A stretch of 64,000 bases of DNA. Source: Candidatus Heimdallarchaeum aukensis. GTDB lineage: Archaea; Asgardarchaeota; Heimdallarchaeia; Heimdallarchaeales; Heimdallarchaeaceae. This document shows positions 44,359 through 63,276 of this stretch, one piece after another. Below the pieces are notes generated by a model. That model saw only the letters and a program-made list of their open reading frames with translations, was not told the origin of the DNA and did no database searches. The position numbers were made by a program, and so were the translations under genes. The stretch is taken from positions 224,001 to 288,000 of the forward strand of contig CP084166.1 of the NCBI GenBank assembly GCA_021513695.1, in the 5' to 3' direction. The number at the start of each line of letters is the position of its first letter. Position 1 is the stretch's first letter.

Positions 44359-45690
44359 ATGAGTATAAGTGTAAATGTAAGTGAAGCCTTTGGCAAAGTA
44401 ATCCAACCCACGTGGCTCACTGAAGACGAAGAAGATTTTGAAGCGGTGAGCCACAATTTCCAATCACCAGAAACTTATTATTCTTCTGTTTTATTGAGTG
44501 AACCTTTGGGATCATACATTAGTACATATGATGCCCAAAAAATATTATCAAAGGGATTAAGAAAAAATTCTTGGATAAAGGCTTATTATACAAATAAAGA
44601 ATTATTGAGAGAAAAATATATTTTAGATTTTGTAGATTTAATTGTAGCATCAATAGATGAAAATTTCAACTCATCAATTATTGAAGATGCAGTTTATTTG
44701 TTTAAGCTTAACCTTCCAAACTTTCTAGCTTCTTTTCAAGAAAACTATTTCACAAGTAACTTAGTAGCAATGTATTTCCTTGCATTGTTAGATCATAAAT
44801 TACAGCAAGTTGGAGGAAAATTAACAGCAAAAGACATCGAAATAATTTATTCTCTACCTAAAATTACGCCAAATGCTTTTTCTTTTTATAATATCAAAAA
44901 AATTCAAAATGACCTTTATTCGAGAGGAATATTAAAGAGAAAAAGGAGAACAGACTTTTATGAGCCATTGAGGGCGAGAATCAAGGATATATTAGGTTTA
45001 CTAGTAAAAAATTTTCCTGAATTAAATAAAAAGTTAGATGATTTGGAGCAAATTGTCTTTGATTTAATTAATATGCGTAAAGTACCAGGAACTAATTACA
45101 AAGATGCAGCAGTAATAATGATAATGAGTGTTGCAACTAATCTTTTTGAACTAAGGTATAGAAATAATTTCTGGTCACTTCTAAGTAAAGAATATGCATT
45201 TGAAAAAGAAAAAATGTTAAAATCTGTATATAGATTTAGAAGTAGGTTAAAGGAAGTAGAATTAAATAAACTAATTTTGAAATCCTACGCTCCAAAAAAA
45301 GAACAAGAAAAAGAAGAAAAGAAAGAAAAAACAATTTCTACTTTCGAAATAAAAAAAGCTATATACTTGTTTAGCGATAAAATAATGGATAAATTCTCAA
45401 GATTAGAGAAGGATCTACTAATAGTCGAACAGCAAGCCTATAGATTAATTGATAAAAATATTCATGCAAATTTGGATGTAGATAAATACACACTTCCTGT
45501 TCTTCTATTTCAAAGTCTTATCCCGAAATTAAACATCGCTGAATATGAGAAAGAGAGACTACTAGAATTTCTTAGCAAATTTATGAAAAAAAATGAACAG
45601 ATACTAAATCGTCTGAAGAAAAGAATAGAGTTAGAAGAAATTTCAAATAAGAAAAAAGAAAAAATGATTAAGGTGGGGGAGTTTGAGTAA
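44359..45690 (+). CDS. Hypothetical protein of the 'VYRFRSR' C-terminal HTH-like family; first gene of the 19-kb co-directional cluster
   Basis: 443 aa. Paralog of 36858..37595 (alignment given under that feature). Lys/Glu-rich coiled C-terminal tail. The start overlaps a DNA motif shared with the 37.7-kb locus. Confidence 0.5.
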   Translation: MSISVNVSEAFGKVIQPTWLTEDEEDFEAVSHNFQSPETYYSSVLLSEPLGSYISTYDAQKILSKGLRKNSWIKAYYTNKELLREKYILDFVDLIVASIDENFNSSIIEDAVYLFKLNLPNFLASFQENYFTSNLVAMYFLALLDHKLQQVGGKLTAKDIEIIYSLPKITPNAFSFYNIKKIQNDLYSRGILKRKRRTDFYEPLRARIKDILGLLVKNFPELNKKLDDLEQIVFDLINMRKVPGTNYKDAAVIMIMSVATNLFELRYRNNFWSLLSKEYAFEKEKMLKSVYRFRSRLKEVELNKLILKSYAPKKEQEKEEKKEKTISTFEIKKAIYLFSDKIMDKFSRLEKDLLIVEQQAYRLIDKNIHANLDVDKYTLPVLLFQSLIPKLNIAEYEKERLLEFLSKFMKKNEQILNRLKKRIELEEISNKKKEKMIKVGEFE

Positions 45691-46423
45691 TTTTTTCACT
45701 TTTATTTGGGAAACCGTGGTGGCAATTTTTACAGGAACAGCATCACTTAGTTTCTTTGTAATTTTAGTAATCTTGTTCCTACGCTTTCTAGTTGATGCTT
45801 TTATTCCAAGTAAGCTACAGATGTTATTGAATATCCTTTTTTTCCCAGGATCATTTATGCATCAAGTTATACAGACAATTGCAGTAAGAGCTTGTGGATA
45901 TGATGTTAAAGTAAATTTTCATATGGCTTTTGATCGAGATTATGCAAGTCAAAGCATAAAAGGAGATTTAACTCATGTTTCTCATGCAGCTTTTATTGGC
46001 TTAAGTCCTTTTTTGAATATAGGATTGGTTGTAGCAATATTGAAATTTAGTGATGATATATCAGGAATTTTCTTGAAATTTGGTATGCCTTTTATGGGAA
46101 CTTTCTTGAAAATTTATTTGTTATTGTGTTTTGCATTTTTTTCAATTCCTGATGTACAAGATCTAATGTTACCTTTTTACACTTTGACGGTAGCTTATTC
46201 AGAATTTATTGCCCTTTTAATGGTCAGTTTACTTTTCTTTGTCTTTGCTGTTGGAGTTTGGGGATGGCTTATTCCTTCAATTAACTTTCTACTCTTTGTA
46301 GTCTTTGTTTTATATTTGGTTAAAAAAAGACAAGATTCTAACTACAAAGCTGGTAATCTACAACCTATTAAACGAAAACAAAGTCAAAATGAGGGAGATG
46401 AAATATTGCTTTTGGAGGTTTAA
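45683..46423 (+). CDS. Membrane protein (about 6 TM), hypothetical
   Basis: 246 aa. Its start overlaps the stop of the preceding gene by 8 nt, and its stop is 2 nt from the next start. Confidence 0.45.
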   Translation: MSNFFTFIWETVVAIFTGTASLSFFVILVILFLRFLVDAFIPSKLQMLLNILFFPGSFMHQVIQTIAVRACGYDVKVNFHMAFDRDYASQSIKGDLTHVSHAAFIGLSPFLNIGLVVAILKFSDDISGIFLKFGMPFMGTFLKIYLLLCFAFFSIPDVQDLMLPFYTLTVAYSEFIALLMVSLLFFVFAVGVWGWLIPSINFLLFVVFVLYLVKKRQDSNYKAGNLQPIKRKQSQNEGDEILLLEV

Positions 46424-46425
46424 AA

Positions 46426-61393: not shown

Positions 61394-61431
61394 ATATTTC
61401 TCGGTTTATAAATTATTTCTTTTATTATCAT

Positions 61432-63276
61432 TTGAAGCTGATGAAAAGAGATAATTTCCTACTTACATTTTTAATTTTAATTATAGTATGTACAATTTTA
61501 CTTATTCCGCTTTATTTTACTGAAGCTCACTATTTAGAACAAGAGGAAGAAAAAAAGCAAATAAAAAATGAGCTTCAATCTACTATCCTTATTCCTCATG
61601 ATATTGTCTTTAATTTCACAGATAAACTTTCTAAATACACTTACTCTTTTGTTCAGAATCTTACATTAAGTGGATTATATGGTTTAGAAATTCTGTTTAA
61701 AACTGGTGGGAGTTTAGCTTTAAGTGATACCTTAAAAGTAAAGATAGTTATGGAGGATAGAATAAATATCAGCTTCACAATAGATAAATTATTTCAAGAC
61801 TCCAATATTCATTCTTTAACAAAAAGTCTTTATTGTGAAAATATTGGAGAAGAAGCAAAGATAACAATATATTTTGAAGGACAATGTTTCATTGGAAAAG
61901 AGGGTAATCTAACTCTTTTCAAAACTATTAATCTTTATTCTTATGATATTCTATCTTTAAAAACAGAAAAAATTATTAGTCCTGACGTTATCCCTCATTC
62001 TATCTCTTTTTCAGGGAATTCTTTCTCCAAAAAGACTTTTTCTGTAAAATCATTTTTTAATGTAGAAAATACAAACATCACAAAAATTAAGTTAAATTTT
62101 ACATTTAATACAAATGATTTTGTTTCACTAGAAAGAAAAATAACTTTTCAGATAGGTTCAAACCTTACAGAAAAGGATTTTAGTTCAGGATTAAACACAA
62201 TTTTATTGTCATTAGATTGTGGAAGTGATCTAAATATTTTGAATATCTCTTTTACAGTAGGTTATAGCTCTGATATCATACATTTAGAGGATTTTAGTTT
62301 AAGTATTGAAGTAGAGAAAGAAGAAGAAACAAGTAAAGAAAGAGAAATTCTTGAATTTAAAGAATGGGAAGGAGATAAGATAGATTTAACTTTTGACATC
62401 TCAATTCTAAAAAATGAGCAGAGTTCTAAGGAGTTAATAATAAACTTAAATCTTAGTTGTGGTTTTGAAGGTGCAACTGTAACTCCTTACATTGAATTTA
62501 GAATTATTTCTGGAATATATACTATTTATACAGGAAAAGTAATGAGTTATGAACAAAGCGAAGAAGAGTTAATAAAAATAAATACTTATACCTACACTTA
62601 CAATAAACCTCTATTAGTTAACTTTTACGCTAAATTAGAAAATAGTGGGAAAGGACAGATCTTTATTTACAATTCTTCTAATCTTACTGCTTCAAAAATC
62701 CCACAAATGTCTTCTAAAGGTTTATTTAGGGAAGTAGAATCAGAGAAAAACGTCTACACTCCTCAACTAGGTGCAGTCATCCTAAATTACTACGATGTCT
62801 TTTTCAATGATTATTCATTAACAATAGATTATGTTTTTAATTTGACTTTTACCCTTTTCACAGATTATGATGAAGTTTTTGATAGAATAAATGTTGGAAT
62901 AACAATAGGCGTAAATACTTCAATAAATAAGATTTTTAGTAAACCTGGTAAGATCTCAATTACTGAAGACGTTAAAATCTATCAAGGATATAACGAGGTT
63001 AAAATCAAGTTAACAATTTATGGTTCAGGAACCTATGTCTCTCTCAGAAATATAACTTATAGACTTAATCCGATTAAAGATTTTTCTTTTCAAGATGAAA
63101 ATCAAACAATTAGTTCGGTAAATATTCCCTTGATAAAACCCCCTTATACAATAAGTTTAGGAATAAGTTCGATTTTAGGTCAATGGGTAATTGGAGGAGT
63201 ATTCGCTAGAGTGTTTAACAGTAGCAAAAAGAAAAATAAACTCTCTAAAAATATGAAATATAAGTTAGAGTTTTAA
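61432..63276 (+). CDS. Surface/secreted hypothetical protein with N-terminal signal/anchor and C-terminal TM plus basic tail
   Basis: 614 aa. N-terminal 'FLLTFLILIIVCTILLIPLYF'. Beta-rich, Asn/Ser/Thr-rich body with many N-x-S/T sites. C-terminal 'LGISSILGQWVIGGVFARVF' then 'NSSKKKNKLSKNMKYKLEF'. Confidence 0.5.
   Translation: MKLMKRDNFLLTFLILIIVCTILLIPLYFTEAHYLEQEEEKKQIKNELQSTILIPHDIVFNFTDKLSKYTYSFVQNLTLSGLYGLEILFKTGGSLALSDTLKVKIVMEDRINISFTIDKLFQDSNIHSLTKSLYCENIGEEAKITIYFEGQCFIGKEGNLTLFKTINLYSYDILSLKTEKIISPDVIPHSISFSGNSFSKKTFSVKSFFNVENTNITKIKLNFTFNTNDFVSLERKITFQIGSNLTEKDFSSGLNTILLSLDCGSDLNILNISFTVGYSSDIIHLEDFSLSIEVEKEEETSKEREILEFKEWEGDKIDLTFDISILKNEQSSKELIINLNLSCGFEGATVTPYIEFRIISGIYTIYTGKVMSYEQSEEELIKINTYTYTYNKPLLVNFYAKLENSGKGQIFIYNSSNLTASKIPQMSSKGLFREVESEKNVYTPQLGAVILNYYDVFFNDYSLTIDYVFNLTFTLFTDYDEVFDRINVGITIGVNTSINKIFSKPGKISITEDVKIYQGYNEVKIKLTIYGSGTYVSLRNITYRLNPIKDFSFQDENQTISSVNIPLIKPPYTISLGISSILGQWVIGGVFARVFNSSKKKNKLSKNMKYKLEF

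What the first reader, a model, noticed from the sequence alone, without database searches (positions are those of the whole stretch)
44359..63276. 19-kb strictly co-directional, tightly packed 10-gene cluster mixing surface/membrane proteins with DNA-processing enzymes: a candidate undescribed system
Ten plus-strand genes run from 44359 to 63276 with intergenic gaps of -20 to +60 nt, including overlaps at 45683/45690 and 54890/54909.

In order they encode:
- a 'VYRFRSR'-family HTH-like protein
- a 6-TM protein
- a 2121-aa Ig-like-repeat surface protein
- a 2-TM anchored 471-aa protein
- a 5-6-TM protein
- a RadB/KaiC-like ATPase
- a nuclease-like 156-aa protein
- a 1051-aa Walker-B-only protein with a wH-like domain
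- a Hel308/Ski2-like DExH helicase with a SWIM finger
- a further anchored surface protein

None of these resembles a canonical RM, CRISPR, toxin-antitoxin or secretion-system core gene. The mix of envelope components and nucleic-acid enzymes in one apparent operon is unusual. The cluster lies in an IS-flanked accessory region.

Possible roles are a defence island, a DNA uptake/transfer apparatus, or an integrated element lacking recognisable capsid genes.
Basis: partly seen in the sequence, partly recalled or inferred. Interest (0 to 1): 0.8.

Follow-up and report, generated by a model that had tools for sequence, protein, structure and literature searches.

The report
Asgard DNA-transfer and recombination gene cluster
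In a Heimdallarchaeum (an Asgard archaeon, the group closest to eukaryotes), a gene block found across its whole family encodes a VirB4/HerA-type DNA-pumping ATPase together with membrane proteins, cell-surface adhesins, DNA-recombination enzymes and the main recombinase RadA. It most likely resembles the DNA-import machines that crenarchaea use to swap DNA between cells for repair.

Summary
Ten co-directional genes sit at the stated coordinates (44359-63276), with the stated overlaps. They sit in a complete 3.08-Mb genome of a Heimdallarchaeum (Asgard).
- The 1051-aa "Walker-B-only" protein (p8) folds as a HerA/VirB4/FtsK-superfamily ATPase (VIA Z 24.6 to VirB4, Z 25.5 to DndH-C). Its P-loop is non-canonical.
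- The "nuclease" (p7) has no detectable homolog.
- The helicase (p9) is a Ski2-like helicase whose closest solved relatives are ASCC3/Brr2, not Hel308.
- The cluster is not an IS-flanked accessory island. Its core (p10-p4-p5-p6-p7-p8-p9, followed by RadA and the Ig-like p3) is kept in order in most Heimdallarchaeaceae genomes (p8 found in 26 of 30) and nowhere else in 370 Asgard genomes. It sits beside the cell's only full-length RadA, and its codon usage is typical of the genome.

Best reading (moderate confidence): a family-specific, membrane-associated DNA-exchange/import apparatus, analogous to the crenarchaeal Ced/Ted systems (which are derived from type IV secretion systems). In this reading, p8 powers transport through membrane proteins (p4/p5), surface adhesins (p10/p3) make cell contact, and the incoming DNA is processed by the RadB-like ATPase and Ski2 helicase and recombined by RadA. 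Rivals are a HerA-based defence system and a repair complex tethered to the membrane. This would be a new variant of a known kind.

The parts
41578..42669 (+). RadA recombinase (Rad51 domain with N-terminal HhH); the genome's only full-length RadA; directly downstream of p9 in family relatives
   Evidence: Pfam Rad51 E 1.9e-51; single strong copy in genome; synteny p9-RadA-p3 in L007, L008, L010, L014
42753..43907 (+). polytopic membrane protein (~9 hydrophobic segments); conserved at this place in genus g1 only
   Evidence: present in G001 at the same place
44359..45690 (+). p1, 443-aa protein with 'VYRFRSR' motif, no known domain; genus-level member
   Evidence: conserved in G001
45683..46423 (+). 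p2, ~6-TM membrane protein, genus-level member
   Evidence: G001
46426..52791 (+). p3, 2121-aa Ig-like (Big_1/Big_3_5/MG4) surface protein with signal peptide and C-terminal TM anchor; follows RadA in family relatives
52849..54264 (+). p4, membrane protein with 2 N-terminal TMs and a ~380-aa domain of unknown fold; core
   Evidence: synteny
54274..54909 (+). p5, ~5-6-TM membrane protein; core; candidate channel (CedA/VirB6-like role, untested)
54890..55525 (+). p6, RadB-like RecA-superfamily ATPase (Walker A GPPASGKT); relatives carry a ~100-aa disordered N-terminal extension
55586..56056 (+). p7, 156-aa conserved protein of unknown family (motifs RIDLAAYD, IIFVEAENG, HPQIY)
56114..59269 (+). 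p8, HerA/VirB4/FtsK-superfamily ATPase (ATPase domain ~res 220-590, non-canonical P-loop around 253-262) with a ~450-aa helical C-terminal region; the system's motor candidate; Heimdallarchaeaceae-specific
   Evidence: AF2 model, Foldseek, VIA Z 24.6 VirB4, 25.5 DndH-C; distribution
59282..61393 (+). p9, Ski2-like DExH helicase (closest solved: ASCC3/Brr2 cassette; Hel308 lower) with a weak SWIM-like C-terminal motif; system-specific paralogue
61432..63276 (+). p10, 614-aa surface protein with N-terminal hydrophobic anchor/signal, beta-rich, no known family; upstream of p4 in relatives

Best explanation
This is a vertically inherited locus specific to the Heimdallarchaeaceae. It encodes a membrane-associated machine that brings DNA into the cell (or exchanges it between cells) and feeds it to homologous recombination. 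It works like the crenarchaeal Ced/Ted systems, which derive from type IV secretion systems.

Proposed roles:
- Surface/adhesion proteins p10 and p3 mediate contact with neighbouring cells.
- Membrane proteins p4 and p5 (and, in this genus, p2 and the upstream polytopic protein) form or line a translocation path.
- p8, a HerA/VirB4-family ATPase that probably sits at the membrane through its partners, powers assembly and/or DNA movement.
- On the inside, the Ski2-like helicase p9 and the RadB-like ATPase p6 process the incoming DNA, with p7 of unknown role.
- The neighbouring RadA recombines that DNA into the chromosome. RadA is co-located in most relatives, so probably co-regulated.

Shown: the gene content, order and conservation, p8's fold, the membrane topologies, and the RadB and Ski2 assignments. 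Inferred: DNA transport, its direction, and the coupling to RadA.
For: - p8 is a HerA/VirB4/FtsK-superfamily ATPase: Foldseek top hits are HerA, DndH-C, VirB4 and R388 T4SS TrwK; VIA Z 24.6 to VirB4 (4ag5), 25.5 to DndH-C, 21-22 to HerA.
- p8 is not a canonical HerA: not detected by DUF87, and the genome has two canonical HerA-NurA pairs elsewhere. It is a system-specific ATPase, as CedB/CedD/TedB are.
- The same operon also encodes polytopic and 2-TM membrane proteins (p5, p4) and large anchored surface proteins (p10, p3).
- It encodes RecA-family and Ski2 DNA enzymes and lies next to RadA in most relatives. This parallels Ted loci, which also carry repair genes (HerA, Rad50), and the Ced model in which imported DNA is repaired by HR (PMC9905601, PMC11823120).
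- Conserved at one chromosomal position in the family (p8 in 26/30, p6 in 26/30, p5 in 25/30), with host-like codon usage. This fits a domesticated cellular function like Ced, not a mobile element.
Against: - No sequence or profile link of any component to CedA/CedA1/CedA2/CedB/CedD or TedA/TedB/TedC.
- No small pseudopilin (CedA1/TedC-like) gene in the locus (all gaps ≤60 nt).
- No VirD4-like second ATPase in the locus.
- p4's fold is unidentified (poor model, no matches). p5 was not folded.
- p8's fold is as close to DndH and HerA (DNA translocases in defence and repair) as to VirB4, so the 'secretion' reading is not forced.
- No expression or phenotype data. No RNA runs were found.
Confidence: 0.4

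Rival explanations
1. A membrane-associated anti-virus/anti-plasmid defence system built on a HerA-family ATPase, like SIR2-HerA (Nezha) or DUF4297-HerA. p8 would be the translocase that senses or pulls invading DNA, and p7, p6 and p9 the effectors that degrade it.
For: - p8's structural neighbours include many HerA-based anti-phage complexes and DndH, the restriction part of the Dnd system.
- p9 matches PADLOC HamB (Hachiman) models strongly.
- p6 and p8 give weak PADLOC mad8 (MADS) hits.
Against: - Defence systems are usually patchy and sit in islands. This block is in 26 of 30 family genomes at one conserved position next to RadA.
- No recognised effector domain (SIR2, DUF4297, TIR, nuclease) was found in p7 or elsewhere.
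- There is no methyltransferase, which MADS requires.
- The HamB match reflects generic Ski2 similarity: NCBIfam Ski2/Hel308 models score higher.
Confidence: 0.2
2. An intracellular DNA-repair/recombination module (RadB-like ATPase, Ski2 helicase and a HerA-like translocase) that works with the adjacent RadA. The membrane and surface genes would serve only to anchor it or be regulatory neighbours, with no DNA transport across the envelope.
For: - p6 is RadB-like, p9 is a Ski2/Hel308-family helicase, and p8 is HerA-like. These families work together in archaeal HR (established knowledge).
- The block is linked to RadA.
Against: - Membrane and surface genes are interleaved in the conserved order (p10-p4-p5-p6-p7-p8-p9), not merely adjacent.
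- The genome already has canonical HerA-NurA pairs and another Ski2 helicase for housekeeping repair.
Confidence: 0.2
3. The remnant of an integrated conjugative element (a T4SS that exports DNA) that has become fixed in the family.
For: A VirB4-like ATPase, membrane proteins and surface proteins are present.
Against: - No relaxase, VirD4, integrase or att-like repeats were found.
- No viral or plasmid relatives of p8.
- Composition matches the host.
- The element is conserved at one chromosomal position across a family.
Confidence: 0.1

Closest known systems
Ced system of Sulfolobales (CedA, CedA1, CedA2, CedB, CedD)
   Same: Built on a VirB4/HerA-like ATPase plus polytopic and 2-TM membrane proteins. 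Conserved on the chromosome (domesticated, not mobile). Tied to DNA import and HR repair (PMC9905601, PMC11823120).
   Different: No detectable sequence homology to any Ced protein. No pseudopilin-size gene. No second HerA-FtsK ATPase (CedD-like) in the locus. Includes a RadB-like ATPase, a Ski2 helicase and large Ig/β-rich surface adhesins, next to RadA. In Asgard, not Crenarchaeota.
Ted system of Thermoproteales (TedA, TedB, TedC, with HerA, ParA/MinD and Rad50 in the locus)
   Same: A VirB4-like ATPase and a polytopic membrane protein, with DNA-repair genes co-located in the locus (PMC9905601).
   Different: No TedC-like pilin or ParA. Its repair partners are RadA, a RadB-like ATPase and a Ski2 helicase rather than HerA and Rad50.
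Bacterial type IV secretion / conjugation (VirB4 family)
   Same: p8's ATPase domain has the VirB4 fold (VIA Z 24.6).
   Different: No relaxase, VirD4, VirB2 pilin or VirB8/VirB10 detected. Not on a mobile element.
HerA-NurA DNA end-resection machinery
   Same: p8 has a HerA-like fold; some VIA alignments start at residue 14, covering the N-terminal β region.
   Different: No NurA partner. Not recognised by the HerA (DUF87) Pfam model. The genome has two canonical HerA-NurA pairs elsewhere.
HerA-based anti-phage systems (SIR2-HerA/Nezha, DUF4297-HerA)
   Same: A HerA-superfamily ATPase paired with other DNA-active proteins.
   Different: No SIR2, DUF4297 or other recognised effector. Found across a whole family at one locus.
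Bacterial natural transformation machinery (ComEC channel, ComFA helicase, DprA, RecA)
   Same: Works like it: a membrane channel plus a helicase/ATPase plus a RecA-family recombinase to bring in and integrate DNA.
   Different: Not homologous: the components belong to different families.

Membership tests
Ced/Ted (domesticated archaeal T4SS-derived DNA import) | VirB4/HerA-like AAA+ ATPase (CedB/TedB) | tested here: met
   p8 ATPase domain matches VirB4 (Z 24.6), HerA and DndH. Sequence-level link not detected.
Ced/Ted | Polytopic VirB6-like membrane channel (CedA/TedA, 6-7 TM) | tested here: inconclusive
   Candidates are p5 (~5-6 TM) and the genus-specific p2 (6 TM) and 42753-43907 (~9 TM). 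No homology test to CedA/TedA/VirB6 was possible; p5 was not folded.
Ced/Ted | Small 2-TM pseudopilin/pilin (CedA1/CedA2/TedC) | tested here: not met
   No such ORF in the locus; intergenic gaps ≤60 nt. p4 has 2 TMs but is 471 aa. Not searched genome-wide.
Ced/Ted | Second HerA-FtsK ATPase (CedD/VirD4-like) | tested here: not met
   Only one HerA-FtsK-type ATPase in the locus. Other DUF87 proteins lie elsewhere in the genome.
Ced/Ted | Induction by DNA damage and DNA import phenotype | not testable with these tools
   No RNA runs found.
Bacterial conjugative T4SS | Relaxase, VirD4 coupling protein and VirB2 pilin on a mobile element | tested here: not met
   None found in the locus. No plasmid or viral relatives of p8.
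HerA-NurA | HerA (DUF87) ATPase paired with NurA nuclease | tested here: not met
   p8 is not detected by DUF87. The canonical HerA-NurA pairs are at 2512-2515 kb and 2875-2877 kb.
MADS defence system | Mandatory MAD6-8 plus methyltransferase | tested here: not met
   Only weak mad8 hits to p6 and p8. No methyltransferase.
Hachiman defence (HamA + HamB) | HamA (DUF1837) with HamB helicase | tested here: not met
   p9 matches HamB models but scores higher to Ski2/Hel308 models. No HamA-like gene.

The most novel reading that the evidence does not exclude
Heimdallarchaeaceae (Asgard archaea, the closest relatives of eukaryotes) carry a dedicated machine for contact-dependent DNA exchange between cells, coupled to RadA-driven homologous recombination. 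Its helicase is closer to eukaryotic ASCC3/Brr2 than to archaeal Hel308. This would be a working precedent, in the eukaryotes' closest archaeal relatives, for DNA exchange plus recombination between cells, bearing on the origin of meiotic sex.
Probability: 0.3. Interest if true: 0.75.

Novelty: new variant of a known kind. Interest (0 to 1): 0.55.

Why it matters
If the reading holds, Asgard archaea have their own domesticated type-IV-secretion-derived DNA-exchange system, separate from the crenarchaeal Ced/Ted systems. It combines RadA-based recombination with a Ski2/ASCC3-like helicase. That would make DNA exchange between cells plus homologous recombination a testable trait of the lineage nearest to eukaryotes, which matters for models of how meiotic recombination and sex arose. 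It would also widen the known range of archaeal VirB4/HerA-based DNA-transfer machines. If instead it is a defence or repair module, it is still a new, family-specific, conserved system with no named counterpart.

Tried and rejected
- Pfam, NCBIfam, PHROGs and PADLOC on all ten proteins. p1, p2, p5, p7 and p10 have no family. The PADLOC hits (HamB, mad8) were judged generic or weak.
- Sequence search of p8 in the protein database: only Heimdallarchaeaceae homologs. No relatives in viral contigs or plasmids.
- A profile of p8 (A1) against PDB sequences: nothing. hhalign of the A1 profile against the genome's canonical HerA: Prob about 1%. No sequence link to HerA.
- p4 AlphaFold model (pLDDT 56): no Foldseek match below E 0.001. 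Its fold is unknown.
- A profile of p7 (A3) against the PDB: nothing meaningful. The Atlas gave only a weak MmcB-like lead.
- Atlas search for p10: only weak β-sandwich/CBM-like structural neighbours, TM under 0.3.
- Atlas search for p5: hypothetical archaeal clusters only.
- Archaeal fusexins (PMC9259645) were considered for p3/p10 and not supported: no Pfam or structural sign, and p10's topology differs.
- The conserved ~410-aa polytopic protein divergent to p10 in relatives has no family. In G000 it lies elsewhere, at 600925-602193, not in the locus.
- No RNA holder was listed for the cluster, so co-transcription could not be tested.
- The IS-flanked-island idea was rejected: conserved synteny and host-like codon usage.
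Full report
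What is there. The window is 224001-288000 of a single-contig, 3.08-Mb archaeal genome (archaeal SSU). Its sister genome in the same genus is Candidatus Heimdallarchaeum endolithica CP084167, so this is an Asgard archaeon of the Heimdallarchaeaceae.

Domain calls:
- p3 (46426-52791) is an Ig-like (Big_1/Big_3_5/MG4/CarboxypepD_reg) surface protein with a signal peptide and a C-terminal TM anchor.
- p6 (54890-55525) is a RadB-like RecA-superfamily ATPase with Walker A GPPASGKT.
- p9 (59282-61393) is a Ski2-like DExH helicase. Its best solved relatives are ASCC3/Brr2 helicase cassettes (172 and 157 bits), ahead of archaeal Hel308 (87 bits).
- p1, p2, p4, p5, p7 and p10 have no known family. p2, p4 and p5 are membrane proteins with about 6, 2 and 5-6 hydrophobic segments; p10 has an N-terminal anchor.

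The key new finding concerns p8 (56114-59269). An AlphaFold model built from a 14-sequence alignment matches HerA, DndH-C, VirB4 and the R388 T4SS VirB4 (TrwK) by Foldseek. By VIA-align its residues ~220-590 match VirB4 (4ag5, Z 24.6, 331 aligned) and DndH-C (Z 25.5), and HerA and the TrwB coupling protein at Z 19-22. The P-loop is non-canonical: ILLCGDKKIR in this protein, AGDKKT in relatives. There is no sequence-level link to these families, and the HerA Pfam model DUF87 does not detect it. The genome carries two canonical HerA-NurA pairs elsewhere, so p8 is a system-specific HerA/VirB4-superfamily ATPase.

Context and conservation. Relatives were fetched around p8 homologs and compared by BLAST:
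- In about eight Heimdallarchaeaceae genomes the order p10-p4-p5-p6-p7-p8-p9 is kept, usually followed by RadA and then the Ig-like p3.
- In this genus (G000 and G001) p10 has moved to after p9, and RadA, a polytopic protein (42753-43907), p1 and p2 come before p3.
- The RadA at 41578-42669 is the genome's only full-length RadA, so the block is tied to the core recombinase.
- p8 occurs in 26 of 30 family genomes and in none of about 370 other Asgard genomes. p6 and p5 follow the same pattern.
- In relatives, p6 carries a ~100-aa N-terminal disordered extension that this genus lacks.
- Codon usage and GC of the cluster lie within the genome's range.
- The IS630 at 37854-38792 is absent from the same place in the sister genome, so it is a recent insertion outside the cluster.
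- Downstream of p10, beyond the window, are a 2646-aa TSP3-repeat protein and an XPD-like helicase. These are not conserved partners.

How it most likely works. The nearest described systems with this anatomy are the crenarchaeal Ced and Ted DNA-import systems (PMC9905601, PMC11823120). They are domesticated derivatives of type IV secretion: a VirB4/HerA-like ATPase (CedB/TedB, plus CedD) powers a polytopic VirB6-like channel (CedA/TedA) and small pseudopilins. Cells exchange chromosomal DNA, which is then repaired by homologous recombination, and Ted loci carry repair genes (HerA, Rad50).

The Heimdallarchaeal block has a VirB4/HerA-fold ATPase (p8), membrane proteins (p4, p5), large anchored surface proteins that could mediate contact (p10, p3), DNA-processing enzymes (p6 RadB-like, p9 Ski2-like) and RadA. 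I therefore propose, with about 40% confidence, a contact-dependent DNA import/exchange machine whose incoming DNA is handled by p9/p6 and integrated by RadA.

Shown: the gene content, order and conservation, p8's fold and the topologies. Inferred: the transport function, its direction and the coupling to RadA.

Against this reading:
- No component has a detectable homolog in Ced or Ted.
- No pseudopilin-size gene and no second (VirD4/CedD-like) ATPase is in the locus.
- p4's fold is unknown.
- p8 is as close to the DndH and HerA translocases as to VirB4.

Rivals are a HerA-based defence system (about 0.2; argued against by family-wide conservation at one site and no effector), a membrane-linked repair module (about 0.2), and a domesticated conjugative element (about 0.1).

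Verdict. This is a conserved, lineage-specific locus of the Heimdallarchaeaceae. Its most likely role is a new variant of the archaeal Ced/Ted-type DNA-exchange systems, coupled to recombination genes. If confirmed, it would show DNA exchange between cells followed by recombination in the archaeal lineage nearest to eukaryotes. Interest 0.55. Novelty: new variant of a known kind.

Noticed in passing
window 37854-38792 (+): IS630-family transposase (rve plus HTH). It is absent at the same place in the sister genome G001, so it is a recent insertion.
   Followed up: yes
window 33989-35443 (-): TnpB-like protein (Cas12f1-like TNB domain), an IS605/IS607-family element.
   Followed up: no
window 29292-32099 (-): GH38 alpha-mannosidase (Glyco_hydro_38N/C, Alpha-mann_mid), unusual in an archaeon.
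   Followed up: no
window 35582-36082 (-): Small protein with a sigma-70 region-4-like HTH.
   Followed up: no
window 36858-37595 (+) and p1 44359-45690: Both proteins carry the 'VYRFRS' motif near their C-termini; both are conserved in the genus (G001).
   Followed up: partly
window 59282-61393 (p9): Ski2-like helicase whose closest solved relatives are eukaryotic ASCC3/Brr2/SLH1 helicase cassettes rather than archaeal Hel308.
   Followed up: partly
genome G000:C1:287475-295415 (just past the window end): 2646-aa protein with 13 TSP3 Ca-binding repeats and a Binary_toxB-like Ca-binding domain, followed by an XPD/DinG-like helicase on the minus strand.
   Followed up: no
genome G000:C1:320983-321603: A paralog of p5 (35% identity) in a different gene context; the sister genome has one too.
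   Followed up: partly
relatives' p6 (e.g. L007:9602-10558): In most family genomes the RadB-like p6 carries a ~100-aa disordered N-terminal extension; genus g1 (window) lacks it.
   Followed up: yes
relatives upstream of p10 (L007:4281-5510, L014:2714-3976, L011:600-1730, L009:15234-16448): A conserved polytopic membrane protein (~400-420 aa, no Pfam) is encoded divergently upstream of p10. In G000 it lies elsewhere, at 600925-602193.
   Followed up: partly
window 44359-63276, run X2 contigs: The X2 contigs show single-base deletions at homopolymers (e.g. 46617, 47242, 53000) that the X1 contig and window lack. These are probably errors in X2.
   Followed up: partly
genome G000:C1:2512-2515 kb and 2875-2877 kb: Two canonical HerA-NurA pairs; the second sits near another Ski2-like helicase at 2880976.
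   Followed up: partly
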